Of a stretch of 64,000 nt of DNA, positions 14,419 through 29,851 are shown piece by piece. Location: IMG/VR virus record IMGVR_UViG_2703718777_000015; one strand, given 5' to 3'. A program made the position numbers and the translations under genes. The stretch is from a virus. Lineage: Duplodnaviria; Heunggongvirae; Uroviricota; Caudoviricetes. Every line of letters begins with the position of its first letter. The stretch's first letter is position 1. Below the pieces are notes generated by a model. That model saw only the letters and a program-made list of their open reading frames with translations. It was not told the DNA's origin and ran no database searches.

Positions 14419-17400
14419 ATGAACAAGCTATCTATGGGGGTATTTCGCTGTTCAAGTGTCAGCGAAATATTGAAATATATTAGGGCAATAACATCTCACC
14501 GAGCGCCGATTAAATACGGCGTGGAAAAGGTGGAAGGCAAAAGCTATGACCGACTGCGCCGGGAGGCGAATCAGAAGGCGATAGATTTGCTTAATTCGCT
14601 GGTGGACGGCGCGACACTGACAGATGAACAGCGCCAGATCCTGGCTGGGTACACCGGTGAAGGCGGCATTGGCGGGTCCGTCTCCGAATATTACACACCA
14701 AAGCCGATCGCTGAAGGTGTCTGGGAGATCATGAAGCTCTACGGCGCGGACGTAGGTAACACTCTGGAACCATCGGCGGGAACCGGCGTTTTTAATGAGA
14801 CAAAACCGGTTGGTACGGTGATGACCGCGACTGAGATCAGCAGTGTTTCCGGTCGTATAAACCAGTTGTTACACCCGGAAGACAGCGTACAGATTTCCCC
14901 GTTCGAACAGCTGGCTATAAGCACTCCTAACGATTCATTCGACCATGTTGTGGGTAACGTTCCGTTCGGCGGTCGTGATAACACACGCAACATCGATAAG
15001 CCTTACGCAGAAGAAACGGACATGGGTTCTTACTTCATGCTCCGCATGCTGGACAAGATAAAGCCAGGCGGATTCATGTGCGTGATTGTGCCGCCGTCCA
15101 TTGTTTCAGGTTCAAACATGAAGCGGTTACGCCTGCGCTTATCCCGTAAAGCTGAATTTCTTGGCGCTCACCGCTTGCCTACCGGTACTTTTGACGCAAA
15201 CGGGACCAGTACAGTCGTTGATGTGGTGCTGATGCGCAAACATCCGGCAGAGATGGCTGAGAAAATCCCCCTGGTGGATGAAAGCACTCTTGAATCGGCA
15301 AATGTGCTTTGGCCAACGTTTATTTCTGGCAAGTGGTTTGAAAAGGATGGCCGCCGGTTTGTTCATGGTACCCAGGAAAAGGGCTTCCAGGGGCGTATTG
15401 AGGTTCGTGCCGACGGGCAGATTGATAACCAGGCTCTTAAAGCGAAGCTGATTCATCGTTTCGAAAGTCGTATCGACTGGTCTTTGCTCGATATGGCTGA
15501 ACCGTTACCGACCGCAGATGTTGTTGATGAAGGGGAAATGCGCCTGATTAATGGCGTATGGCAAAAATATGCTGGTGGTCGCTGGATTGAAGCTGATGCC
15601 GGGAAGGAACTTAAGATCGATGCTGCCAGTTATGGCGCGGATAGCTGGGAGGCTCTTCAGCGTAACCTGACTACAACAGAAGGCCGTCTCGGCATGACAT
15701 TTACCCAGATGGCAAATGTCCGCGATAAGTACACCACATCAATCAGCGACGATATGGTGCAGCTGGTGGACTGGATTAACAGCCAGCCTGAAAAATACCG
15801 TGAACGCTTGTATCGCGGGGCGATGATTGGCCGGATGTTAATTGAATATCAGGACATGAAGGCCGCCGGGCATAGTGCTGAACAAATCGAACAGCAGCGC
15901 CTTTCTCTGGTATCCCGTTTGCAGGCAGAGATTGACCGTTTTGGTAACCCCGGTCGCGGTCCGATAGCGAAATTATCGGGGAGCGGTGCGCGCGCCTGGT
16001 TTGCTTTCCGTGGTGCAATTAAGCTGGATGGCACTATTTCTGACGAGCTGACAGGAAAGCTGGTTACGCATGATTCCAGCGCAAGTTATGACTCCACCAG
16101 CTATCAGGACACCCTGCGTTATCTCTACAGTGATCTCACTCGCGATCCAATCCAGCTCGATGATTTCCGCCTTGCGTTTACCGGCGAACTGCCAGCCAGT
16201 GATGAAGAGTTGCTTAATTTATTGGCCAGCACCCCTGGTATTGCGGTTTCACCGTATGGCGGGATTGTTCCGTTCGCCCGCGCCACCAGCGGCGACATTA
16301 ACGAGATAGTGGCTCCAAAACAGGAATTCCTTGCCACACTCCCCGACGGTCCAGTAAAGAACAACGTCCTTAATCAGCTGGCAGCGATCGAAGAGAAGCG
16401 CATCAAGACGCCAGCAGAGAATATCCGCTTTAAGCTCAATAGCCGTTGGTTCGACCGCTCCGTCATTCTGGAGTTTTTGCAGGAAAACGGCTATCCGGAT
16501 CTGCGCTATGTGCAGTCAGTGCAGCTGGAAGGCGACGAAATGGTTTCTGACACCTATCACGGTGGTGATGGTCTGTTCGTCGGGCACCGATACGGTGTCG
16601 TCCAGCGCAAGGATAAAGAAACAGGCGAGATCCACTACGAGTGGGACCGTAAATCAGGTGAAAACGCGACCGGGTTCCCGGCACAGCTGGAAAAGTATCT
16701 CAATGGTGCGCGTATCGGTGGCAAAGATAGCGCGACGGCGAACGGCTACCGCGAGCAGATGGCACTGCTTGAGGACCAGTTCAATAAGTGGATCAAGACG
16801 CACGATCGCTACGATGAGCTGGTTGCCAAATACAACGATGTTTTCAATAGCAATATTCCGTATGAACACTCTGGTGATCCGCTTGGGTTGAAGGGATTAA
16901 GCGGTAAGCGTCAGCCATTTGATTACCAGAATAGCGAGGTGCGCCGACTGTCCGAAGATGGGCGCGGCATCCTGGGCTTCGGCACCGGGCTGGGTAAAAC
17001 CACGACCGCGCTGGCGCTTGAGGCGTTCAACTATGAGAACGGTCGTTCCACCCGTACTGCGTATGTAGTGCCTAAATCAGTGCTGGAAAACTGGTATTAC
17101 GAAGCAAAAGAGTTTCTGAGTGAAGAGGCATTCAGTAACTACCTGTTCGTCGGTCTTGATGTGCTGATGGATGGCGATCAGATTCGCCAGGTGCCGGTGC
17201 TCGATGAGAACGGTAAACCTGTCGTTGGTGCAGATGGCACTCCCGTTATGCGCGATGCCCTTAAGCTGGCAGATGAAGCCACTATCACGGCGCGGATGAA
17301 CGCGATCCCGCACTCAAACTACCGTGCAGTCGTGTTTACCAAAGAACAATACGCCCGCATTCCGCTACGTGATGACACCGTAGATGAGCATGCACAAGAC

Positions 17401-20400
17401 ATGCTTTATGACTTCGTTGCTGCCGGGCGTGTGGCCAGCGCAATGGACTCCGATTCCCATCGCAAAGAGGCGGCGCGTCGCCGGGTATTGTCGGAGTATT
17501 CAGATACCGGTACCGAAAAAGCAGAGAAGTATCCGTACTTTGAGGATATGGGCTTCGACAGCGTGATTGCTGACGAAGGCCACAACTACCGCAATAGCTA
17601 TAAAAATGGTCGCGAAGCGTCACAGCTGGCCTATCTGCCCACCAGCGCGGTGGCGCAATCGGCGCGAGATATGGCAATCAAAAACGCGTACCTGATGAAA
17701 AAGAATGGTGGGCGTGGACCGGTTCTCCTGACTGCAACGCCAGTCGTTAACACCCCGATCGATGCATACAACATGCTTTCTCATGTTCTGCCGAAGGAAT
17801 ACTGGCAGAAGATGGGGATCTACGGTCCTGATGACTTCGTTAAATTCTTCGGCAAGACCAGGCTGGAAACGGTACAGAAAATCAGCGGTGAAGTTGAAGA
17901 AAAAATGGCGCTGGTGGGCTTTGAAAACCTTGATGCGCTGCGCGGCATATTCCATCGCTGGACAACGCTTAAAACGGCGGAAGACGTTAAGGATACCGTG
18001 GAGATCCCGGAGCTGGACGAACACCAGCAGGATGCACCACTTACTGAAGAACAACTGGCGGCGTATGAAGAATTGCGTCAGCAGGCGGAAGCGGCGGCCA
18101 AAGCCAACAATGGCGTAACGACCTCGGTCGATGAAGACGGAGTGATTGAGCACGAGAAAGCCCGTCCGATCTTCTCAATAATCAGGGATATGGACCGCGT
18201 ATGTACTGACATGGACCTGTACTATCGCCGGATCACCTATCGTTTCCTGCCGGAGTACGCCGATGCGGTGCAGCAGCTGGCGGACAGTTTGCCCAAACAA
18301 GCCACCAGCGAAGACGACGACAGTGATGATTCAATCACGCAGCAATCGCAATACTCCCTGATAGATAAGGGCGAGTTTATTCAGTTGCAGGTTCCGGAAG
18401 CGTTCGAGCAGGAAGTGAATAAGCGCTTGGCCAAGTTTGGCATTGACGAACAGACCGTAACTCACCCCGTTACGCCCAAATACGTGAAGCTGATCGCCAC
18501 GCTGAAGGAGTTTTTCCCGGAAGGTAAGCAAATCATCTTCACGGACGAAAAAACGCAGCACCAGAAGCTCAAGCGCATTATCTGCAATGCTCTTAACCTT
18601 GAACCTTCAAAGGTGGGGATCCTGAATGCTCAGACGGTTGCCGAGGCAGGTAAAACCGGTAAGAAACTGAAAGCGGTTAAACCGCCGAAAGAGTTACCGG
18701 ATGAACCAACAGATGCACAGATAGCGAAATACAACGAGCAAATGGCTCTGTATGACGCCTATATCGCGCAGCAGAATGAAATGTCGTTGGGCGGTCTGGA
18801 AAAGATTGCAGCCGACTTCCAGGAGGGCCGGACTCCGATCATCATCTGCAACAAAAAGGCAGAGGTGGGTATCAACCTGCATCGAGGAACGACTGACATC
18901 CATCATCTGACGTTGCCATGGACACCAGCCAGTATCGCACAGCGTAACGGTCGCGGTGCCCGAGTTGGCTCCAACCGTGCAAGCGTTCGCGTTCACTACT
19001 ACTGCGGCAAGGGTTCTTTCGATGAATACCGACTGAAGACGCTGAAGCGTAAAGCAGGCTGGATCTCCGATATCCTCCGTTCAGATAAGTCAGAAATGGA
19101 GAACGCCGACGCCAACGATATGATCGAAATGCAGATGTATACCGCTAAGGATGATGGCGAACGTCTGGCAATGATGCAGGTTCAAATGGATAAGGCGAAA
19201 GCCGCGCAACGCGCTCGCCAGAAAGAACAGGCTACTATCGACCTTCAGAACTACATCAAGGCGCAGCACGCAGCTGGCGAGGATGTGGAGGTACTTACCG
19301 CTGAATTAGAGCGAAGCAAAGCGGAACTTGAAAAGACCACCGCCGAGGTAGCTAAATTCAAACAGGCGGTAATGGCCAAAGCAGCTGATAACGCAGACTG
19401 GAAAGCCCGCTGGGGTAGCGTCCATCACACAGACCGTACGTTGTTAGCACAGTATCGCGCGTCGTTGAAAAGCGCCATTCAGCGCAAGGCTAATATCTCT
19501 CAAGCCATCTCCCGCTATGAGAAATTATTGAACCGTACTCAGAAGGCCGCGACGGATATCAAACGCCTGCGCCCGCTGGTGGAGGATGCAATAAATAAAG
19601 GCATTCTGGATGTTGATCCTGACCTGGTTAACCATGCGAGTGGGTTCCTTGTTATCGGCGATCGCTCATGGCGTGTAGGCCAATACTACGATTGTGCCGG
19701 TGATATCGTTCGCATTAAGTCGCTGGACTTCGACAGCCAGCGCGCAGACGTGGAGATTATCTTTACCTTCAAAGGTACCAAATCGGGTAACTGGGATGTG
19801 AAGACGCTGGATAAACAGGTTGATGTAACTCCCGATGAAGATGCTGTTATGCAGAAAATCAGTGGTGGCGTCTCCATCGCCGGGATTAACGACATCATTT
19901 CCTGTGACGATTTCTACCGTTTCCAGCAGCGCGGCATGATCAAAATCACTGACTCATACGGCGTTCAGACTACAGAGTCAGGCTATAGCATCGATTTTGT
20001 TGGTACCTATACGGACCCACTGAAGCATGCGGTTTACCCGGATCGCCGTGACGGCGCGCTGAAGTCGTCAATTGCAAAATGGGTGCTTGGTATGATGTCG
20101 GAAGGGAATAACCGCCAGATCCGTTCGGCAGAAACATTCCTGGTTGAACTGTTTGGCTCCAATTATGGCGATGTAATCGCGTCATACGGAGATACGCTAT
20201 CCCCTGAAGCAATTCAGGAGAAAATAGCGGATGCGATCGCCAGAATGCCGGAAAAAACAAGCCAGGGGGCTACTCGTAACGGGGATTCTGAACTTGAAGT
20301 CACCAATGCCATTTTCGGTACCAATGAGTTCCGGGCGTCAGATTATGAGATCACCACAGCACAGTTTGGCACCATTGGCATTTACAGCAATAAAGACGAG

Positions 20401-21186
20401 ATCAAACAGTCAATGGACGCTGCAAGCGCGCGCATTGCAGCAGAACGCAAAGCCAATCTGAATCATGCAGTTTCCGCGCTGACTCAATCGTGGGTAACAG
20501 CAATCAGGGAGGCCGCCACCACAGGAAAAATCACACCGGCAATTGCGGATGTCGTAAACGACGGCTCTAAATTTATGGATGCCTATAAAATGGATGCGGT
20601 GCAGTTGCCATCAGCCTATGGTCAACTCAGCTATCGCATGACCTACAACCTGGTATCAATGTTTTCCGACCTTGCCATCCTTGGGCTGGTGGATCTTAAC
20701 GAGGTTACGCCGGAATTGCTCAGCATGCGCAAGAATCATGTGGAGATATTGCAGAGAATTAACACGGTTCTTGCTGGGCGCTCCGATGAAGAGAAACAGG
20801 CCGACGCTGATCGGATAAACCTGGCCCTTGGCAACATCACGGAGGAAGAGATTGCCGCCAGAAACGAGAAACAAGAAGAGTTATCATCAATACAGGGTGA
20901 TGCCACCAGCATAGCTCAGTCTCTTGGTCTGAATTATCGCGTATCCACCGCCGACCTGAAGATGATGTACGCACCAAAATTCGCCGCTGGCGAGGTATTT
21001 GGGCTTCAGGAAGCCTCAGGCATGAAAGGCGTTCTTTTCCGTGCGAAAGACGCAATCAAGGCGAAATTCGGCGCTCGCTGGCTGCCAGCGAAGGCGAAGA
21101 ACAGCGATTTCCCGGGTAACTGGTGGATTATCGAGACAAAACACAACGTGGCGGACGTTCTGGCCGTCATCCAACAATACGCATAA
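14419..21186 (+). CDS. darB: DarB antirestriction protein (methyltransferase-helicase fusion, packaged in capsid)
   Basis: 2255-aa ORF; N-terminal N6-methyltransferase-like region and central SF2 helicase motifs (GTGLGKTT, DEGHNYRN). Confidence 0.85.
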   Translation: MNKLSMGVFRCSSVSEILKYIRAITSHRAPIKYGVEKVEGKSYDRLRREANQKAIDLLNSLVDGATLTDEQRQILAGYTGEGGIGGSVSEYYTPKPIAEGVWEIMKLYGADVGNTLEPSAGTGVFNETKPVGTVMTATEISSVSGRINQLLHPEDSVQISPFEQLAISTPNDSFDHVVGNVPFGGRDNTRNIDKPYAEETDMGSYFMLRMLDKIKPGGFMCVIVPPSIVSGSNMKRLRLRLSRKAEFLGAHRLPTGTFDANGTSTVVDVVLMRKHPAEMAEKIPLVDESTLESANVLWPTFISGKWFEKDGRRFVHGTQEKGFQGRIEVRADGQIDNQALKAKLIHRFESRIDWSLLDMAEPLPTADVVDEGEMRLINGVWQKYAGGRWIEADAGKELKIDAASYGADSWEALQRNLTTTEGRLGMTFTQMANVRDKYTTSISDDMVQLVDWINSQPEKYRERLYRGAMIGRMLIEYQDMKAAGHSAEQIEQQRLSLVSRLQAEIDRFGNPGRGPIAKLSGSGARAWFAFRGAIKLDGTISDELTGKLVTHDSSASYDSTSYQDTLRYLYSDLTRDPIQLDDFRLAFTGELPASDEELLNLLASTPGIAVSPYGGIVPFARATSGDINEIVAPKQEFLATLPDGPVKNNVLNQLAAIEEKRIKTPAENIRFKLNSRWFDRSVILEFLQENGYPDLRYVQSVQLEGDEMVSDTYHGGDGLFVGHRYGVVQRKDKETGEIHYEWDRKSGENATGFPAQLEKYLNGARIGGKDSATANGYREQMALLEDQFNKWIKTHDRYDELVAKYNDVFNSNIPYEHSGDPLGLKGLSGKRQPFDYQNSEVRRLSEDGRGILGFGTGLGKTTTALALEAFNYENGRSTRTAYVVPKSVLENWYYEAKEFLSEEAFSNYLFVGLDVLMDGDQIRQVPVLDENGKPVVGADGTPVMRDALKLADEATITARMNAIPHSNYRAVVFTKEQYARIPLRDDTVDEHAQDMLYDFVAAGRVASAMDSDSHRKEAARRRVLSEYSDTGTEKAEKYPYFEDMGFDSVIADEGHNYRNSYKNGREASQLAYLPTSAVAQSARDMAIKNAYLMKKNGGRGPVLLTATPVVNTPIDAYNMLSHVLPKEYWQKMGIYGPDDFVKFFGKTRLETVQKISGEVEEKMALVGFENLDALRGIFHRWTTLKTAEDVKDTVEIPELDEHQQDAPLTEEQLAAYEELRQQAEAAAKANNGVTTSVDEDGVIEHEKARPIFSIIRDMDRVCTDMDLYYRRITYRFLPEYADAVQQLADSLPKQATSEDDDSDDSITQQSQYSLIDKGEFIQLQVPEAFEQEVNKRLAKFGIDEQTVTHPVTPKYVKLIATLKEFFPEGKQIIFTDEKTQHQKLKRIICNALNLEPSKVGILNAQTVAEAGKTGKKLKAVKPPKELPDEPTDAQIAKYNEQMALYDAYIAQQNEMSLGGLEKIAADFQEGRTPIIICNKKAEVGINLHRGTTDIHHLTLPWTPASIAQRNGRGARVGSNRASVRVHYYCGKGSFDEYRLKTLKRKAGWISDILRSDKSEMENADANDMIEMQMYTAKDDGERLAMMQVQMDKAKAAQRARQKEQATIDLQNYIKAQHAAGEDVEVLTAELERSKAELEKTTAEVAKFKQAVMAKAADNADWKARWGSVHHTDRTLLAQYRASLKSAIQRKANISQAISRYEKLLNRTQKAATDIKRLRPLVEDAINKGILDVDPDLVNHASGFLVIGDRSWRVGQYYDCAGDIVRIKSLDFDSQRADVEIIFTFKGTKSGNWDVKTLDKQVDVTPDEDAVMQKISGGVSIAGINDIISCDDFYRFQQRGMIKITDSYGVQTTESGYSIDFVGTYTDPLKHAVYPDRRDGALKSSIAKWVLGMMSEGNNRQIRSAETFLVELFGSNYGDVIASYGDTLSPEAIQEKIADAIARMPEKTSQGATRNGDSELEVTNAIFGTNEFRASDYEITTAQFGTIGIYSNKDEIKQSMDAASARIAAERKANLNHAVSALTQSWVTAIREAATTGKITPAIADVVNDGSKFMDAYKMDAVQLPSAYGQLSYRMTYNLVSMFSDLAILGLVDLNEVTPELLSMRKNHVEILQRINTVLAGRSDEEKQADADRINLALGNITEEEIAARNEKQEELSSIQGDATSIAQSLGLNYRVSTADLKMMYAPKFAAGEVFGLQEASGMKGVLFRAKDAIKAKFGARWLPAKAKNSDFPGNWWIIETKHNVADVLAVIQQYA

Positions 21187-21219: not shown

Positions 21220-21660
21220 ATGGCCACACTATCTGATACAATAAAACCGAATAAAACATATCTTGAGGCGGTACTCCGTACAGCGTTGTTAGGAAAGACA
21301 GAAGACGAATACGTTGATTTCTTCCTGTCAGGGCTACGCGGGCGATTACTGAAAAATCCCCGCCTGTACCGCAGCTATGGTCCATACTGGCCGGAAATTA
21401 AAAAATTATTACTGGAGCGCGGTTATGGTAATTTCGGTCGTCTCGTTGACCGTGACGTTCGCAAAATTTACCGTTATGACCGTCCGGCGCTGACGCTCAT
21501 AGCCGCGACGCTCTACAGCCAGGAGCGTTTTGATAATGGTCAGATATACTCAGCCTGGCATTTACTGCCAGTGCCTGAAGAGGTTGACGACCAGGACTAT
21601 GAGTTTGAGTCTTACGATTTGGAAGTTGAAGCCTTGGCACAGGCTGGAGAGAAAACTTGA
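21220..21660 (+). CDS. ulx: Ulx-like protein downstream of darB
   Basis: 146-aa ORF, darB-ulx-lxc order. Confidence 0.5.
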   Translation: MATLSDTIKPNKTYLEAVLRTALLGKTEDEYVDFFLSGLRGRLLKNPRLYRSYGPYWPEIKKLLLERGYGNFGRLVDRDVRKIYRYDRPALTLIAATLYSQERFDNGQIYSAWHLLPVPEEVDDQDYEFESYDLEVEALAQAGEKT

Positions 21661-21905
21661 AAAAGCGATACTACACAGTAAAGCATGGGACGCTACGAGC
21701 ATTACAAGAGTTTGCTGACAAGCATAACGTTGAGGTGCGCAGGGAAGGGGGAAGTAAAGCTCTGCGCATGTACCGTCCGGACGGAAAATGGCGGACGGTC
21801 GTCGATTTCAAAACTAACAGCGTTCCCCAGGGCGTCCGCGACCGGGCATTCGAGGAATGGGAGCAGATCATCATAGATAACGCATTGCTCCTGAATGCTG
21901 ATTAA
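21657..21905 (+). CDS. lxc: Lxc-like C1 co-repressor
   Basis: 82-aa ORF overlapping ulx stop. Confidence 0.5.
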   Translation: MKKRYYTVKHGTLRALQEFADKHNVEVRREGGSKALRMYRPDGKWRTVVDFKTNSVPQGVRDRAFEEWEQIIIDNALLLNAD

Positions 21906-21910
21906 GAACT

Positions 21911-21937
21911 CTCCGGCCTAGGGAGATTAGGCCGGAG
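21911..21937. terminator. Bidirectional terminator hairpin between lxc and SIR2-like gene
   Basis: Inverted repeat CTCCGGCCTA...TAGGCCGGAG between convergent genes; approximate. Confidence 0.5.
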
Positions 21938-21946
21938 ATAAATATA

Positions 21947-23251
21947 CTATATAAACTTAGATATAATATCGTGAATCTGTTGTAGCGGGATTTCTTCCAT
22001 CTTACTCTTAATAAGAGAGCGGTTAGATGCTGTCAGTGAAGGCCATTTTGTTTTCCAGGCTAGATATGCTCGCCATGAGTAGCCTGTTTCGTAAGGTTTA
22101 TTCATATAAGTCATTGAGTGTTCAACCGCATGTATGTATTTTTTCTCAAAGTTGGTTCCTTTTACTTCAAATAAACTACCGAAATAAATAAGCCATTTTG
22201 CCAGGTGTTCATACTGCTCCCATGCGCCAGACTCTTTAGTAAGATCTATTTTTTTATCTATTATATCACAAAAAACATTTAATACCTTTTCATCATTCCA
22301 GCTATATCCAGATGATGAAATGGAGGAAATGATATGATAAAAAGAATCCTCTAACTTCAAGAACTCTATTTTATACTCTCTTCCGTTTTTTATTACCGAT
22401 TTGATTGAGTGCCTCAATTTGTCTTTTATTTTTTTTGCTTCTGGAATTTTCTTGTTAAGTTTTCTAAAGAAATCAGACACCTCTGTTTTATCTATAACCC
22501 TAATCCCAAAGCAGGAAAAATAGTAATCTTTAATAGGTTGCAATAGTTTCCCTCGGGAAATAAGGAAAATATTGGAGGACATTACGTTGTCCCGTGAAAA
22601 TACCTTATATTCATTTATAATCGCCTTGAGGTTCGCGTCACTTAGAGAATAGCCAAGAATAACAATAGTGTTTTCATGTAGAACTGTGCTTAGTTTATTT
22701 GAAAAGTAAGAATTACCATTTATAAATCTGAAATAATCCTCGCTAGTAACAACCATATCTGATGGGGAGTCTATAGAGCCGTGAACATGGTAGACTTTAA
22801 CCTCACAATTATATTTTGGAATTGGCAGGCCGGGGGTGATTGTACACGTTCGATTCTCTCCAGCCAGTTTTTCTGCTAACTTGTCATAATTTGTCGTAAT
22901 TACTTTAAATGTGTTTTCTTTGAAAAAGTCTTGAATATATTCAATTGATGGATCAAGTTCGATTGAGGCTATGATTTTCTCAATCTCCTGGTAAATATTT
23001 TTCCCCGAAAGTATAAATTTTAGTGCAATAACCTGAGCAGCCTCTTCAAGGCTAAGGTCTTTTGCTTTTCCATCAGGAAATAATTCCTCTTTGAGTGAGT
23101 CACCATCCTTCAATAAACCGCACAGTTGCTCCAATAAAGATTGCCAACTTGGGGCTTTATCATCAGAAACAGCCTTTGAAAATCCAGTGCCTGTAAGAAA
23201 GCACAGCCTATGTGTAGCTGCTGCATAGGCAATTTCTATATACTCGCTCAT
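21947..23251 (-). CDS. SIR2_2-family (sirtuin-like) protein with unknown C-terminal domain; candidate NAD-depleting defence effector
   Basis: 434-aa ORF; motifs FLTGTGFS...PSWQSLLEQL, VITTNYDKLAE (N121), VYHVHGS (H157), IVILGYSLSD typical of SIR2_2 domains (ThsA/DSR-like); markedly AT-rich compared with flanks; sits at the P1 res/mod position. Confidence 0.7.
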   Translation of the reverse strand: MSEYIEIAYAAATHRLCFLTGTGFSKAVSDDKAPSWQSLLEQLCGLLKDGDSLKEELFPDGKAKDLSLEEAAQVIALKFILSGKNIYQEIEKIIASIELDPSIEYIQDFFKENTFKVITTNYDKLAEKLAGENRTCTITPGLPIPKYNCEVKVYHVHGSIDSPSDMVVTSEDYFRFINGNSYFSNKLSTVLHENTIVILGYSLSDANLKAIINEYKVFSRDNVMSSNIFLISRGKLLQPIKDYYFSCFGIRVIDKTEVSDFFRKLNKKIPEAKKIKDKLRHSIKSVIKNGREYKIEFLKLEDSFYHIISSISSSGYSWNDEKVLNVFCDIIDKKIDLTKESGAWEQYEHLAKWLIYFGSLFEVKGTNFEKKYIHAVEHSMTYMNKPYETGYSWRAYLAWKTKWPSLTASNRSLIKSKMEEIPLQQIHDIISKFI

Positions 23252-23307
23252 TACTTACTCCATTTACTTATAGTTCTACGGAGAAGTATACCCTAATGCA
23301 TTGACGT

Positions 23308-23961
23308 TTATAGATAATTTCCTTTTCCTGTTAATACTCCCTTAGGCACCTGTTTTTGTGCCAGCGTTTGGGTTCCGCGAATTATGTTAATCAGAGGGCT
23401 TAGTAACGATGGTTCCTGGCGTGCCTCAACTTCTCCAGCCATTGCCCTGATGTAGTCTGCGCTGGCAACGTTGTTGTATTCCGTCGCAAAGCAACATAGT
23501 AACGTCAGAACATGCTCTGTCGTTATTTCGCTCCAGTTGATGTTGAAAAATTCATCGCCTTTTTTGTCGTGTTCGGAATCGAAGATGCTTTGGTGGAGGA
23601 TGTATTTGCCGGATTCTTTGCGCGGTAACTTGATCGCTTTCTGGCGTTCCAATTCCTTGTAAATCTGCATTGCTTCAATCAGTACCGGCCTGCCGTTCAT
23701 AAAGGGATCTCGCAACCTTACACGCTGGCCAACTCGACCAGTAATAAAGCTGTTTTCCTCTTCCACCAGCACGATAAAACCCTTTTCCTCTTTTTCTCGC
23801 AATTCGCGCAGCAGCTGGAGTTCCATGTCGCGGCGGCGTTCAGGGTAGCTGGTCCGCTCAGCCATTATCAGCTCATTGTTGATCCATGCAGCAGTCATTG
23901 ACGCCGGTTTGCCGACGCTCATTGAAACAACGCATATTTTCTTATCCATAGCGCCCCACAA
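23308..23961 (-). CDS. Hypothetical protein; either Mat (maturation) homolog or partner of the SIR2-like gene
   Basis: 217-aa ORF between ref and the SIR2-like gene, same strand, backbone-like GC content. Confidence 0.4.
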   Translation of the reverse strand: MWGAMDKKICVVSMSVGKPASMTAAWINNELIMAERTSYPERRRDMELQLLRELREKEEKGFIVLVEEENSFITGRVGQRVRLRDPFMNGRPVLIEAMQIYKELERQKAIKLPRKESGKYILHQSIFDSEHDKKGDEFFNINWSEITTEHVLTLLCCFATEYNNVASADYIRAMAGEVEARQEPSLLSPLINIIRGTQTLAQKQVPKGVLTGKGNYL

Positions 23962-24136
23962 AAAAGAAAAGCCACCAGCGGCGGCTTAGCAATACAACTG
24001 AAGGTAGCGCCCGGTACTCAGACTGTGCCGTCCATGGAATATTTGAAAAGGGATCCATCCGTACCGGGCGTGTGATGATTCTGACTGAAGTCACTTGTCA
24101 GTTGTCAATTATTTCAGATTAAAAATAATATATTTA

Positions 24137-24697
24137 TTAGTGCATGATGTTTGCCATCTCATAGGCGTCAGCCAGCAACTCCATCTCTGACTTGTTAAGC
24201 AAGGTGAATTCTTTCTTGCCTCCAACCACACCATCGGCATGAACAGGGACCAGCCAAGGGTATTTTTCTCTTACTTCAGCCGGTGCTGCATGCTGGTGGT
24301 GCCATCTGCAAAGGGGCAATTGCTTTTTGTGACAACCCGGCGCGGTACGACCGGAGATATGGTGCAGAGACACCTCTTCAGATATTACTCCATGCATGTA
24401 GCAGGCAATGCAGGGGAGAGCGCCAAGAGCATTGGCGATGCGCCGTTCCTCCGCCGTTGGTGTTCTCCCCTTCAAGCCACGAGATTTTATTTTTACCGCG
24501 CTTTTCCGCGTTTTGCTGGCTGGTGGGCGCTCTTTCTGTTTAGCGATACGGCGGTCGATAGTATCCCGCATTTTCTGATATTGCGATTCTCGCCAGGCGG
24601 GGTCAGCCAACTTTTCCCGTTGCCGAGCGATCGCTCGTTCTCTGGCTGCCTTCTGCCACTCGCGGCGCTGTTCAATTTTTTGTTCGATTGTTTTCAT
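24137..24697 (-). CDS. ref: Ref recombination-enhancement HNH endonuclease
   Basis: Track ORF 24137..24802; start at Met36 gives 186 aa; C-terminal Cys/His HNH-type motif. Confidence 0.8.
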   Translation of the reverse strand: MKTIEQKIEQRREWQKAARERAIARQREKLADPAWRESQYQKMRDTIDRRIAKQKERPPASKTRKSAVKIKSRGLKGRTPTAEERRIANALGALPCIACYMHGVISEEVSLHHISGRTAPGCHKKQLPLCRWHHQHAAPAEVREKYPWLVPVHADGVVGGKKEFTLLNKSEMELLADAYEMANIMH

Positions 24698-24702
24698 ATG
24701 GC

Positions 24703-24728
24703 AAAAAAAAGGCGGCCTAATGGCCGCC
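24703..24728 (-). terminator. Intrinsic-terminator-like hairpin plus T8 immediately upstream of ref start codon
   Basis: GGCGGCC-ATTA-GGCCGCC followed by TTTTTTTT then GCCATATG (reconstructed from the ORF-track N-terminal extension AIRPPFFCHM). Confidence 0.5.
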
Positions 24729-24789
24729 AATGATGTCAAGGAGTGAAGTAATGGCAACGTCTTCGTAGTTGACAAAAACTGCGGCTCAA

Positions 24790-24943: not shown

Positions 24944-25255
24944 TTATTTCATCATGGAAGCTGTTAACGCTTTGGACCTTGCTGAACTGATTGAAAGGAC
25001 ATTGTTAACCTTACCCAAGAGTTCGCCAAACTCAGACATCACTTTAGCAAAACCGCGCCGTGCTTCTTCCTCGGTGGCATTCATCACGAAATGTTCAGCA
25101 CTACGCATACTTTTGACAGGAAACGCAACGGATATTGAGTCAATATCAGGCATTCTATCGTTCAGCTTTACAGTGACAATGACGGCTGGCGACTGAATAT
25201 TGGTGCTTACAGACAGCACTACATATTTTCCGTCGATGTTGAAATCCTTCCTCAT
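24944..25255 (-). CDS. cra: Cra-like small protein downstream of cre
   Basis: 103-aa ORF between cre and ref. Confidence 0.45.
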   Translation of the reverse strand: MRKDFNIDGKYVVLSVSTNIQSPAVIVTVKLNDRMPDIDSISVAFPVKSMRSAEHFVMNATEEEARRGFAKVMSEFGELLGKVNNVLSISSARSKALTASMMK

Positions 25256-25305: not shown

Positions 25306-26337
25306 CTAATCGCCATCTTCCAGCAGGCGCACCATTGCCCCTGTTTCACTATCCAGGTTACGGATATAGTTCATGACAATATTTACATTGGTCCAGCCAC
25401 CAGCTTGCATGATCTCCGGTATTGAAACTCCAGCGCGGGCCATATCTCGCGCGGCTCCGACACGGGCACTGTGTCCAGACCAGGCCAGGTATCTCTGGCC
25501 AGAGTCATCCTTAGCGCCGTAAATCAATCGATGAGTTGCTTCAAAAATCCCTTCCAGGGCGCGAGTTGATAGCTGGCTGGTGGCAGATGGCGCGGCAACA
25601 CCATTTTTTCTGACCCGGCAAAACAGGTAGTTATTCGGATCATCAGCTACACCAGAGACGGAAATCCATCGCTCGACCAGTTTAGTTACCCCCAGGCTAA
25701 GTGCCTTCTCTACACCTGCGGTGCTAACCAGCGTTTTCGTTCTGCCAATATGGATTAACATTCTCCCACCGTCAGTACGTGAGATATCTTTAACCCTGAT
25801 CCTGGCAATTTCGGCTATACGTAACAGGGTGTTATAAGCAATCCCCAGAAATGCCAGATTACGTATATCCTGGCAGCGATCGCTATTTTCCATAAGTGAA
25901 CGAACCTGGTCGAAATCAGTGCGTTCGAACGCTAGAGCCTGTTTTGCACGTTCACCGGCATCAACGTTTTCTTTTCGGATCCGCCGCATAACCAGTGAAA
26001 CAGCATTGCTGTCACTTGGTCGTGGCAGCCCGGACCGACGATGAAGCATGTTTAGCTGGCCCAAATGTTGCTGGATAGTTTTTACTGCCAGACCGCGCGC
26101 CTGAAGATATAGAAGATAATCGCGAACATCTTCAGTTTCTGCGGGAAACCATTTCCGGTTATTCAACTTGCACCATGCCGCCCACGACCGGCAAACGGAC
26201 AGAAGCATTTTCCAGGTATGCTCAGAAAACGCCTGGCGATCCCTGAACATGTCCATCAGGTTCTTGCGAACCTCATCACTCGTTGCATCGACCGGTAATG
26301 CAGGTAAATTTTGGTGTACGGTCAGTAAATTGGACAT
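25306..26337 (-). CDS. cre: Cre tyrosine recombinase
   Basis: 343-aa ORF matching Cre essentially throughout (MSNLLTVHQNLPALPVDATSDEVRKNLMDMFRDRQAFSEH...MVRLLEDGD). Confidence 0.97.
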   Translation of the reverse strand: MSNLLTVHQNLPALPVDATSDEVRKNLMDMFRDRQAFSEHTWKMLLSVCRSWAAWCKLNNRKWFPAETEDVRDYLLYLQARGLAVKTIQQHLGQLNMLHRRSGLPRPSDSNAVSLVMRRIRKENVDAGERAKQALAFERTDFDQVRSLMENSDRCQDIRNLAFLGIAYNTLLRIAEIARIRVKDISRTDGGRMLIHIGRTKTLVSTAGVEKALSLGVTKLVERWISVSGVADDPNNYLFCRVRKNGVAAPSATSQLSTRALEGIFEATHRLIYGAKDDSGQRYLAWSGHSARVGAARDMARAGVSIPEIMQAGGWTNVNIVMNYIRNLDSETGAMVRLLEDGD

Positions 26338-26755
26338 TTAACACTCAGATAATGGTTTTAAGTAAAGTGTACAGGATCGGCTCTGCCTTTACCTGTTTAT
26401 GGTTCTCGTCATAGAAACGCCAGCGACCGCGCGTGCGTTCTATTTTCTCTTCACCGCGCGATAATGACAGTTGACAACTATCACGATCAAACCCTTTTTC
26501 CCGCCAGTAACCACGGTTTTTCTCAAGCTCAAGATGAGTGGACACTTTAGCAGCTGAATATCCCATTTTTCACCTCTGATTGATTGGTGGTGCTAAGTGC
26601 GCTACGCGAAATCTGGAGCACTAACACTGCCAACATTTCGCAGATTTTACGTAGCGCAACCTTGATCAAATGATCAAGTGATCACTATTTGACCTGATAA
26701 GGTATTGAACTGTATGGATTTACAGGTAAATTGATCATGTTCAATAACCCTTAAG

Positions 26756-28366: not shown

Positions 28367-29851
28367 TTATTCATTAAGCCATGCCAGAGCTTCATCAACC
28401 TGCGCTTCGTCTTCGACGCTAAGCACTTCATCCTGGGGAACATAATCCGCCAGCATAGCGAAACAATATGTATCCCAATGGTCTGGTGAGTGCAGGTTGA
28501 GTTTTTTCTTCATATCCTCCTTACTCATCACCTTCCATTGACCTGCGGAGTTAATCCCTACAGGGATTTTCGACGCTTCCTCAATAGTTTCATTACCCTT
28601 ATCCAGTCTCATACGACCAGATTTTACGGCCTCTGCGGCTTGAACGTTGGCATAAGCACGTTTATCAAAGTACAGGCTCTTATCTTCACGGCTATGCATC
28701 TTTTTACCCCAGCGTATACGCTGTACGGTAATACCATAATACTCGTACATCAGATCCGCCGTTGCTTTACCCAGGCCATCGCCGTCTATCGCTATGGTGA
28801 TATTTGGGAATCGCTCAGGATTGCATTCTGCGAAAATTTTGGCGGCAAGCTGCGTTTCTGTAACGTCTGTGTATTCCAGCATTCGATAGTTGATTACACG
28901 GCGTTTATTTCGCTGGCCGGACACCATCATGATATTGATAACGGACTTATCCCGTCCCGTACCACCAGCAACGTCCACACATGCAAGCCAGCCCCATCCT
29001 TTGGCAATCTTGACTTTCCGCCGCGTTGCACGTTCAACCTCATCACGTCCAAGAAGGAAGCCATCCTGTGATTTAGGGAATAGGCCGCGTACCTTAATCA
29101 TGTACATAGGGTTATCACGCCCGCCGTACTCCGCCAGCTTCATTTTGATAAATGCTGGCGTTACCAGCGGTGATTCCTCACTGTTAAGCGTGATCGCCGT
29201 ATAAACGCCATCAGGGTTACCAGGACGCTTGGCCAGTTTATGGTGTGTATCGTAGAAATAGCCGCTTGGGCGTGTAGGCTGTGACAGTAATAAGATGCGG
29301 TTATCCTGTCCGGTAAGAGCACCGGTGATGATACCGAAAGCTCTATCACTGACACCGGAGGCTTCATCGATAATATACAGAAGATGATCTGCGTGTTCAC
29401 CGGCGAGAGCTTCTTCACTTCCCAGACGAAAGCCCTTCGGTACTACAGTCCATACACCTTTACCAGTAACCTCATAGAAAGCGGTTTCTGTCAGAACAAA
29501 ATAATCAGCAAGCCATGGGAAACGGCTGGTGGCAGTAGCCCAGTTTATCTTGATGTACTTGAATATACCGGTCATTACCTGCTGAATTTTGTTCGCAACG
29601 ATAATGGCGCGGGCACCGGGATACATGATTATGAACAACATGATCATGATAGAAGTCATGTCTGATTTCCCGGTACCGTGACCAGACGAAACAGATGTCT
29701 TGCTACCCTGTTCCTGCACAGACTCAATAATCAGATCCTGCTGCCAGGTAGGTGTTTTGCCGAACAAAACATCAGCGGCAGCAATCCAGTCATAACGATA
29801 TAGCGCCACCAGCTCGCGCCAACGTGGATCCGTTACGCAACTTCTGGCCAT
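28367..29851 (-). CDS. pacB: Terminase large subunit PacB
   Basis: 494-aa ORF with terminase ATPase motifs and C-terminal nuclease region, downstream of pacA. Confidence 0.9.

What the first reader, a model, noticed from the sequence alone, without database searches (positions are those of the whole stretch)
23308..23961. 217-aa gene upstream of the SIR2 gene: conserved Mat or sensor partner?
This ORF is 56 bp upstream of and co-oriented with the SIR2-like gene, so the two could be one operon. Its position after ref and its backbone-like composition also fit the P1 maturation gene mat. The sequence alone does not tell me which, and the answer decides whether the candidate system is one gene or two.
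Basis: inference. Interest (0 to 1): 0.5.

Follow-up and report, generated by a model that had tools for sequence, protein, structure and literature searches.

The report
P1 mat gene, not SIR2 partner
The ORF is the ordinary phage P1 backbone gene mat (particle maturation); it sits at the edge of a slot where P1-like plasmid-phages swap cargo, and the SIR2 gene in that slot here is a stand-alone one-gene module.

Summary
The ORF is real: minus strand, 23308-23961, 56 nt upstream of and co-oriented with the SIR2 gene. Its likely start is the ATG at 23949, giving 213 aa.

It is P1 Mat. It shares 204/213 residues with P1 Mat, has the same ref-mat-[cargo]-lxc synteny and the same Omat/Pmat/LPmat control region. 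Its first 170 codons show 18 synonymous and 2 non-synonymous codon differences from P1.

- mat occurs in 694 PLSDB plasmids, and this SIR2 gene in 66.
- mat matches 693 of 5,426 complete E. coli genomes, and 68 carry both genes.
- 19 phage records carry mat, and none carries the SIR2 gene.
- RCS47 has an empty slot. P1 has res/mod there, and other elements have GNAT, RelA/SpoT, DUF2971 or EAL genes.
- 70 full-length SIR2 orthologues in unrelated bacteria have no Mat homologue nearby and no conserved neighbour.

The candidate system is therefore one gene. Co-transcription with mat remains possible, because no terminator and no good promoter lie in the gap.

Seen in passing: the Mat model has the fold of the large-terminase nuclease domain but lacks the strand-1 catalytic Asp. 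A second SIR2 allele, 59% identical, sits behind the same 56-nt spacer.

The parts
   Evidence: 204/213 residues identical to P1 Mat. PHROG 1837 matches full length, E 3e-113. The synonymous-to-non-synonymous pattern shows purifying selection.
23308..23436 (-). Variable 3' end of mat (last 43 codons), which borders the cargo slot
   Evidence: Nucleotide divergence is 9-45% here against 2-5% in codons 1-170. Homology to other plasmids breaks at many points inside this stretch. The protein still ends in a conserved VPxGxLTGKxNxL motif.
23969..23987 (-). G+C-rich hairpin followed by a T-run in the mat leader, between the promoters and the ATG
   Evidence: Found by the terminator-like scan. It is identical in P1 and RCS47. 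Its function is unknown.
24078..24108 (-). Pmat (-35 TTGACA at 24108-24103) and the overlapping late promoter LPmat, placed by homology to the P1 annotation
   Evidence: P1 features lie at L001 6767-6797. The region is nearly identical in the window.
24129..24146 (.). C1 repressor operator Omat, placed by homology; it overlaps the ref stop codon
   Evidence: The P1 protein_bind feature lies at L001 6818-6835. The sequence is conserved in the alignment.
24137..24697 (-). ref (RecA-dependent nuclease), the upstream backbone neighbour
   Evidence: Pfam PF16786, E 1.4e-50. The P1 ref CDS maps to this position.
23252..23307 (-). 56-nt mat-SIR2 spacer with a GGAG Shine-Dalgarno sequence; it belongs to the SIR2 cargo, not to the backbone
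   Evidence: Homology to P1 and RCS47 stops within a few bases of the mat stop codon. The spacer occurs in 124 PLSDB records; every listed one is annotated with a SIR2 gene or a hypothetical protein, never another named cargo. It is 55/56 identical in front of a 59%-identical SIR2 allele. It contains no terminator and only a weak promoter-like site.
21947..23251 (-). Stand-alone SIR2-family gene (434 aa): an N-terminal defence-type SIR2 domain plus a C-terminal all-helical domain; this is the cargo of the slot
21910..21938 (.). 11-bp-stem hairpin between the SIR2 stop and the lxc stop (convergent gene ends), likely a terminator
   Evidence: Found by the terminator-like scan. It is absent from the empty site of RCS47 and differs in the second SIR2 allele.
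21657..21905 (+). lxc, the backbone gene on the other edge of the cargo slot
   Evidence: Identical to RCS47 up to the lxc stop codon, after which the sequences diverge.

Best explanation
The ORF is the orthologue of bacteriophage P1 mat, a conserved backbone gene of P1-like phage-plasmids, and it is not a component of the SIR2 module. It is transcribed from its own P1-type control region. That region holds a sigma-70 promoter Pmat repressed by C1 at Omat, overlapped by the late promoter LPmat. mat forms the right-hand edge of a variable cargo slot (mat | cargo | lxc). Homologous recombination in the flanking backbone exchanges unrelated accessory genes in this slot. In this element the slot holds a single, self-contained SIR2-family gene that arrived with its own 56-nt leader and 3' hairpin. 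The candidate defence system is therefore one gene. What Mat does is inferred, not shown. Its confident model has the RNase H-like fold of the nuclease domain of large terminases. The family lacks the catalytic Asp of strand 1 and keeps only an acidic pair after strand 4. I therefore propose that Mat is a free-standing, probably non-catalytic terminase-nuclease-like protein that acts in DNA or particle maturation. It might do so by binding DNA, the PacA/PacB pacase or the portal. This would fit its historical name and the reported essentiality of amber mutants.
For: Identity:
- 204/213 residues match P1 Mat.
- The order cre-c8-ref-mat and the promoter/operator region match P1.
- Selection is purifying.

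Backbone status:
- mat is in 694 PLSDB records, the SIR2 gene in 66, and both contiguously in 64.
- 19 phage records carry mat and none carries the SIR2 gene.
- 693 of 5,426 complete E. coli genomes match, and 68 carry both genes.

Slot contents elsewhere:
- RCS47 has an empty site with mat 39 nt from lxc.
- P1 has res/mod.
- Other elements have a GNAT gene, two hypothetical genes, DUF2971, EAL or RelA/SpoT genes.
- The Mat protein next to the empty site is 99% identical to the window's.

SIR2 autonomy:
- tblastn of Mat against 85 loci that carry SIR2 orthologues gives nothing better than E = 4.
- The 128 flanking genes of 70 orthologues fall into 109 clusters, and the largest has 3 members from same-genus synteny.
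- Mat hits no PADLOC model.

Mat fold and context:
- The model has pLDDT 90.3.
- Acidic residues make up 0-5% of strand-1 positions and 95-100% of positions 63-64 across 56 family members.
- Distant Mat homologues (57% and 40% identity) sit in phage morphogenesis regions without any SIR2 gene.
- The literature lists mat as an essential 'maturation control' gene, with EOP 0.28 under CRISPRi (PMC10695390).
Against: No terminator and no convincing promoter separate mat from the SIR2 gene. The two genes may therefore share a transcript. If so, SIR2 expression would follow the C1-repressed/late mat promoters, which is odd for a lysogen-expressed defence gene. Within P1-like elements this SIR2 gene is almost always next to mat (64 of 66 records), though that follows from the fixed slot. 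The functional reading of Mat rests on a predicted structure. Catalytic positions were assigned from secondary-structure order, not from a superposition. There is no sequence-level similarity to PacB. In distant relatives the gene lies beside baseplate genes rather than packaging genes. The primary papers on mat (Lehnherr 2001; Lobocka 2004) could not be read.
Confidence: 0.93

Rival explanations
1. Mat is a functional partner (sensor, regulator or antidote) of the SIR2 protein, so the candidate system has two genes.
For: The genes are co-oriented and 56 nt apart, with no terminator-like site between them. In P1-like plasmids this SIR2 gene is contiguous with mat in 64 of 66 records. The closest solved SIR2 folds, KomC and ThsA, belong to multi-gene systems.
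Against: About 82-90% of mat-bearing replicons lack any SIR2 gene. The same Mat allele occurs beside an empty slot and beside unrelated cargo. 70 SIR2 orthologues outside P1 have no Mat homologue and no conserved neighbour. Mat hits no defence-system HMM. mat has its own phage-cycle control region and a reported essential lytic function.
Confidence: 0.03
2. mat and the SIR2 gene form one transcription unit without any functional coupling. SIR2 has no promoter of its own and is expressed by read-through from Pmat/LPmat.
For: No terminator-like hairpin lies on the minus strand between 23308 and 23251. The best promoter-like site in or near the spacer scores only 8 of 12, with a 3-of-6 match at -35. 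A GGAG ribosome-binding site precedes the SIR2 ATG. The spacer is conserved at 96% or more across 124 plasmids and two very different SIR2 alleles, which suggests it carries signals that matter.
Against: Pmat is C1-repressed in P1, so a gene that depends on it would be silent in the lysogen, where a defence gene is expected to act. Other cargo genes in the same slot lie in either orientation, so the slot does not require the mat promoter. Weak or non-consensus promoters cannot be excluded by a consensus scan.
Confidence: 0.45
3. Mat is an active RNase H-fold nuclease, such as a Holliday-junction resolvase or an auxiliary packaging nuclease that clears branched DNA before packaging, and not a degenerate domain.
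Against: No acidic residue is conserved in strand 1 in any of 56 family members, and that residue is the first metal ligand of this superfamily. Other candidate acidic positions (145, 138) are only 61-64% conserved.
Confidence: 0.2
4. The ORF is a decayed or truncated mat. The 2-bp deletion upstream removes the N-terminal 37 residues of the 250-aa protein annotated in P1, making a pseudogene.
For: The window lacks 2 bp that P1 and RCS47 have, 10 nt upstream of the ATG at 23949. This puts the P1-annotated upstream start in another frame.
Against: The 213-aa form is what most records and PGAP annotate, and it is the length of homologues down to 21-40% identity. The PHROG profile is 212 positions long. 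The 213 codons are intact and under purifying selection. The 'extension' region contains the leader hairpin. The P1 250-aa annotation is therefore more likely over-extended.
Confidence: 0.02

Closest known systems
Bacteriophage P1 Mat (YP_006475.1, gene mat, 'maturation control'; Lehnherr et al. 2001, J Bacteriol 183:4105)
   Same: 96% identity over the 213 conserved residues. It has the same neighbours (ref upstream) and the same Omat/Pmat/LPmat region.
   Different: The P1 record annotates a 250-aa product with a 37-residue N-terminal extension that cannot be translated here because of the 2-bp deletion. The C-terminal 43 residues carry 7 of the 9 substitutions. Downstream, P1 has convergent res/mod instead of a co-oriented SIR2 gene.
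Nuclease (RNase H-like) domain of large terminase subunits (e.g. phage E217 TerL 8dkr, G20c 5m1f, T4 gp17 3cpe, Sf6 gp2 4idh)
   Different: Mat is a free-standing 213-aa protein with no ATPase domain. Sequence identity is 5-11%. The strand-1 catalytic Asp is absent in the whole family. There is no profile similarity to the element's own PacB.
Single-gene SIR2 defence candidates and SIR2 effectors of Thoeris (ThsA), Kongming (KomC) and Avs5 (this comparison concerns the neighbouring gene)
   Different: It has no SLOG or STAND domain and carries an all-helical C-terminal domain instead. It has no conserved partner gene. All matches to full-length defence models are partial.
Accessory-gene hotspots of temperate phages and satellites (P2/P4 hotspots, Rousset et al. 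2022) and gene flow in P1-like phage-plasmids (Pfeifer and Rocha 2024, PMC10879196)
   Same: A fixed interval between two conserved backbone genes carries mutually exclusive, unrelated cargo, including known defence genes such as EcoP1I res/mod in P1 itself.
   Different: I did not find the mat-lxc interval described as a named hotspot in the papers I could read. The slot's right boundary lies inside the 3' end of an essential gene.

Membership tests
P1 Mat (maturation control protein) orthologues | Full-length sequence similarity to P1 Mat | tested here: met
   204/213 residues identical, E 3e-158. PHROG 1837 matches 1-213 against 1-212 of 212, E 3e-113.
P1 Mat (maturation control protein) orthologues | Conserved genomic position: downstream of ref, in the cre-c8-ref-mat block of a P1-like genome | tested here: met
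   The window is collinear with P1 and RCS47 at 96% nucleotide identity from the mat stop codon through cre.
P1 Mat (maturation control protein) orthologues | Dual control region (C1 operator Omat, sigma-70 Pmat and late promoter LPmat) | tested here: met
   The annotated P1 elements align with the window, with only a few substitutions outside the hexamers. Promoter activity itself was not tested.
P1 Mat (maturation control protein) orthologues | Requirement for production of infectious particles | not testable with these tools
   Only literature is available. mat is listed as essential from amber mutants, with EOP 0.28 under CRISPRi knock-down (PMC10695390).
Two-gene SIR2 defence system with Mat as partner | The partner co-occurs with the effector across genomes | tested here: not met
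   mat occurs without the SIR2 gene in about 570-630 of 694 PLSDB records and in all 19 phage records. SIR2 orthologues occur without mat in 85 loci.
Two-gene SIR2 defence system with Mat as partner | A conserved neighbour family of any kind next to SIR2 orthologues | tested here: not met
   128 neighbours fall into 109 clusters, with a maximum size of 3 from same-genus synteny. The upstream genes in Halomonas and Pseudoalteromonas are unrelated to each other and to Mat.
Two-gene SIR2 defence system with Mat as partner | The partner resembles a known defence-system component | tested here: not met
   Mat has no PADLOC, Pfam or NCBIfam hit.
Large-terminase nuclease domain (RNase H-like fold) | Three-dimensional fold | tested here: met
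   [not shown]
Large-terminase nuclease domain (RNase H-like fold) | Catalytic acidic triad, including the Asp on strand 1 | tested here: not met
   Acidic residues make up 0-5% of positions 5-11 in 56 homologues. Only positions 63/64 (95-100%) and 124 (71%) are acidic. Positions were assigned from the secondary-structure order, not from a superposition.
Large-terminase nuclease domain (RNase H-like fold) | Fusion to an N-terminal packaging ATPase, and sequence-profile similarity to terminases | tested here: not met
   Mat is a 213-aa single-domain protein. hhalign against the element's PacB gives probability 0.4%. The PDB sequence search finds only noise, NusG at E 0.35.
PADLOC PDC-S25 single-gene SIR2 candidate (neighbouring gene) | Match to the family HMM over its full length | tested here: inconclusive
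   E 5.3e-24, but only residues 100-253 align to profile positions 127-283 of 517.
PADLOC PDC-S25 single-gene SIR2 candidate (neighbouring gene) | Protection against phage infection | not testable with these tools
   I found no experiment. A text search for PDC-S25 returned 2 papers; the one listed is unrelated.

The most novel reading that the evidence does not exclude
Mat is a free-standing, catalytically degenerate copy of the terminase nuclease domain. It controls DNA packaging or particle completion in P1-like myoviruses, which would be a regulatory 'pseudo-terminase' not described for any phage. Because the SIR2 cargo lacks a promoter, the element would express its SIR2 NADase from the dual early/late mat promoter, that is during its own lytic cycle rather than in the lysogen.
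Probability: 0.25. Interest if true: 0.5.

Novelty: already known. Interest (0 to 1): 0.15.

Why it matters
For the scan, the result settles how many genes the neighbouring candidate has. The SIR2 module is a single gene plus its 56-nt leader and 3' hairpin (about 21906-23307). mat should be excluded from any construct meant to test the system itself. It could still be kept as a native upstream context if the question is expression.

The result also marks the mat-lxc interval as a place to look for cargo in other P1-like phage-plasmids. These elements are common: 693 of 5,426 complete E. coli genomes carry a match.

The only new biology is incidental. A classical but mechanistically blank P1 gene gets a testable structural hypothesis, namely a terminase-nuclease fold with a degenerate active site.

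Tried and rejected
- **Family searches for Mat.** Pfam, NCBIfam and PADLOC gave no hit. PHROGs gave only families of unknown function.
- **PDB sequence search.** A profile of Mat found only NusG at E 0.35, which I treat as noise.
- **Mat as a PacB paralogue.** hhalign of the Mat family against the element's PacB gave probability 0.4%, so there is no detectable sequence relationship. PacB itself has no Pfam hit.
- **Candidate partners of SIR2 elsewhere.** The co-oriented genes just upstream of the SIR2 orthologues in Halomonas (179 aa) and Pseudoalteromonas (207 aa) looked like possible partners. They are unrelated to each other and to Mat, and clustering of all 128 neighbours confirmed that no family is conserved.
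- **RNA element in the spacer.** Rfam found nothing relevant. The fold of the spacer is not unusual, z = -1.2.
- **Promoter for SIR2.** The standard scan found none on the minus strand near the spacer. A relaxed scan found only 8-of-12 matches.
- **Primary literature on mat.** Lobocka 2004, Lehnherr 2001 and Walker & Walker 1983 are not held. The P1 virion and knock-out paper does not mention mat.
- **Mat as a RuvC-type resolvase.** I considered this on first sight of the beta-beta-beta-alpha-beta topology. I downgraded it after the column counts showed no strand-1 acidic residue.

Full report
**Observation**

The window is a P1-like phage-plasmid. Around the finding the genes are as follows:

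| Gene | Coordinates | Strand |
|---|---|---|
| darB | 14419-21186 | + |
| ulx | 21220-21660 | + |
| lxc | 21657-21905 | + |
| SIR2_2-domain gene | 21947-23251 | - |
| ORF in question | 23308-23961 | - |
| ref | about 24137-24697 | - |
| c8 | 24944-25255 | - |
| cre | 25306-26337 | - |
| cra | 26345-26566 | - |

It is 217 codons from a TTG start, co-oriented with the SIR2 gene and separated from it by 56 nt (23252-23307). GC content is 0.44-0.50 over the ORF and 0.33-0.38 over the SIR2 gene.

One refinement concerns the start codon. The conserved start is the ATG at 23949 (213 aa), as annotated in RCS47 and by PGAP. The PHROG 1837 profile, 212 positions long, fits this length.

**Identity**

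- The 213-aa product shares 204/213 residues (96%) with P1 Mat.
- Nucleotide homology to P1 and RCS47 runs from within a few bases of the mat stop codon through ref, c8 and cre at about 96%.
- The P1-annotated C1 operator Omat, the sigma-70 promoter Pmat and the late promoter LPmat are conserved upstream.
- The gene is under strong purifying selection. In codons 1-170 there are 18 synonymous and 2 non-synonymous codon differences from P1, and 25 and 0 from the copy on plasmid pYJ4-b.
- The reference P1 record annotates a 250-aa Mat with a 37-residue N-terminal extension. The window lacks 2 bp that P1 and RCS47 have, 10 nt upstream of the ATG, and this puts the extension out of frame.
- Homologues down to about 20-40% identity are also roughly 185-245 aa, most about 200-225 aa. 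The 213-aa form is therefore the real product, and the P1 annotation is probably over-extended.

**Backbone gene or SIR2 partner**

That test is met.

| Collection | Records or genomes with mat | With this SIR2 gene | With both contiguous |
|---|---|---|---|
| PLSDB plasmids | 694 | 66 | 64 |
| GenBank phage records | 19 | 0 | 0 |
| Complete E. coli genomes (5,426) | 693 matched the combined mat + SIR2 query | not counted separately | 68 |

The E. coli genome set overlaps PLSDB, so the two are not independent.

Counting a second, divergent SIR2 allele (described below), 124 PLSDB records have a SIR2 gene behind mat. About 82% of mat-bearing plasmids therefore still have none.

The interval between the mat stop codon and the lxc stop codon holds different cargo in different elements:

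| Element | Cargo in the mat-lxc interval |
|---|---|
| RCS47 | empty (39 nt) |
| P1 | EcoP1I res/mod |
| pCFSAN004176P_03 | GNAT acetyltransferase |
| pRHB27-C02_2 | two hypothetical genes |
| pUTME-8-1 | DUF2971 gene |
| MS14386 plasmid 2 | EAL-domain gene |
| SJ46 | RelA/SpoT gene |

These cargo genes lie in either orientation. The Mat protein beside the empty slot is 99% identical to the window's, so there is no SIR2-specific Mat allele.

I also ran the reverse test. Full-length orthologues of the SIR2 protein (43-61% identity, about 434 aa) are widespread in Proteobacteria. I fetched 85 loci that contain them.
- tblastn of Mat against all 85 loci found nothing better than E = 4.
- The 128 genes immediately flanking 70 full-length orthologues fall into 109 clusters. 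The largest has three members and reflects same-genus synteny.
- Two co-oriented upstream genes that looked like possible partners, in Halomonas and Pseudoalteromonas, are unrelated to each other and to Mat.
- Mat matches no PADLOC model.

The SIR2 gene is therefore a self-contained, one-gene module. mat is the backbone gene that happens to border its insertion slot.

**The operon question**

No terminator-like hairpin lies between mat and the SIR2 gene on the minus strand. The best promoter-like site in or near the spacer scores 8 of 12, with a poor -35 element. A GGAG ribosome-binding site precedes the SIR2 ATG. Read-through from Pmat/LPmat is therefore plausible.

The P1 record annotates the operator Omat as controlling mat expression and LPmat as a late promoter. 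Dependence on these promoters would make SIR2 a lytic-cycle gene, which is unexpected for a lysogen-expressed defence function. Sequence alone cannot decide this. RT-PCR or 5'-RACE would.

**What Mat is likely to do**

This section is inference.

The family does not keep the catalytic set of this fold.
- Positions 5-11, which form strand 1, are 0-5% acidic.
- Only the pair at positions 63-64 (95-100% D/E) and position 124 (71% D/E) are conserved.
- There is no profile similarity to the element's own large terminase PacB.

In more distant relatives (57% and 40% identity) the Mat homologue lies directly upstream of a baseplate/tail gene block, with no SIR2 gene.

The literature available to me lists mat as 'maturation control'. 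It records the gene as essential by amber mutation, citing Lehnherr et al. [quoted passage not shown] Under CRISPRi knock-down the EOP was 0.28 (PMC10695390).

My best mechanistic guess is a free-standing, probably non-catalytic terminase-nuclease-like protein that acts in DNA or particle maturation. An active nuclease is the main alternative. Confidence in this layer is low, about 0.3-0.4. It does not affect the main verdict.

**The neighbouring SIR2 gene, briefly**

- Pfam assigns a SIR2_2 domain.
- PADLOC's best hits are partial: PDC-S25 at 5e-24, ThsA at 7e-18 and LmuA at 2e-13.
- An all-helical C-terminal domain spans residues about 258-434.
- The same arrangement is already public. Plasmid NZ_CP033848.1 is 100% identical. 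In pMCR_SCKP-LL83 the gene was annotated as hypothetical, next to 'maturation control protein'.

**An unexpected detail**

A second SIR2 allele, only 59% identical in protein (pYJ4-b type, 57 PLSDB records), occupies the same slot. The 56-nt spacer in front of it is 55/56 identical to the window's. The 3' flank is unrelated. The spacer occurs in 124 PLSDB records. Every listed record is annotated with a SIR2 gene or a hypothetical protein there, and none with other named cargo.

Two readings are possible. The spacer may be under functional constraint. Alternatively, allele replacement may have used a crossover at the very conserved 5' end of the gene.

**Verdict**

The 'Mat' reading is right. 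The finding is an already known gene in an already sequenced arrangement, so its interest is low. The incidental structural hypothesis for Mat and the two-allele SIR2 slot are the only items worth a further look.

Noticed in passing
[not shown]
   Followed up: partly
window 23252-23307 and L095 4081-4136: Two SIR2 alleles, 59% identical in protein, occupy the same slot in P1-like plasmids (about 64 and about 57 PLSDB records). The 56-nt spacer in front of them is 55/56 identical, while the 3' flank is unrelated. The spacer occurs in 124 records, and no listed record shows other named cargo beside it.
   Followed up: partly
window 21906-23307; loci L001, L002, L088-L091, L096: The mat-lxc interval is a cargo hotspot. 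It is empty in RCS47 and holds EcoP1I res/mod in P1. In other P1-like elements it holds GNAT, RelA/SpoT, DUF2971, EAL, two hypothetical genes or SIR2, in either orientation.
   Followed up: partly
window 23308-23436 (-): The last 43 codons of mat are 9-45% divergent at the nucleotide level between elements, against 2-5% for codons 1-170. Homology breakpoints scatter through this stretch. The protein still ends in a conserved VPxGxLTGKxNxL motif.
   Followed up: partly
window 23950-23960 (-): A 2-bp deletion relative to P1 and RCS47, 10 nt upstream of the mat ATG, puts the 37-residue N-terminal extension of the P1 reference annotation (250 aa) out of frame. This indicates that the extension is not coding.
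   Followed up: yes
window 23969-23987 (-): An 8-bp-stem G+C-rich hairpin followed by TTCTTTTTT lies in the mat leader, downstream of Pmat/LPmat and upstream of the ATG. It is identical in P1 and RCS47. It could be the ref terminator or an attenuator of mat.
   Followed up: no
L094 6001-11544; L092 6001-11720: In distant relatives, Mat homologues (57% and 40% identity) sit directly upstream of and co-oriented with a baseplate/tail gene block (PHROG baseplate wedge, tail, baseplate and hub families). In P1 that block lies elsewhere.
   Followed up: partly
window 28367-29851 (-): The gene that other records annotate as terminase or putative large terminase (PacB; 494 aa, with a GHGTGKS Walker A-like motif) has no Pfam hit at E <= 0.1.
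   Followed up: no
[not shown]
   Followed up: no
window 24696-24762 (-): There is a sub-threshold Rfam match to suhB/mmgR (22.9 bits against a gathering score of 41; E 0.12) just upstream of the ref start. It is probably chance.
   Followed up: no
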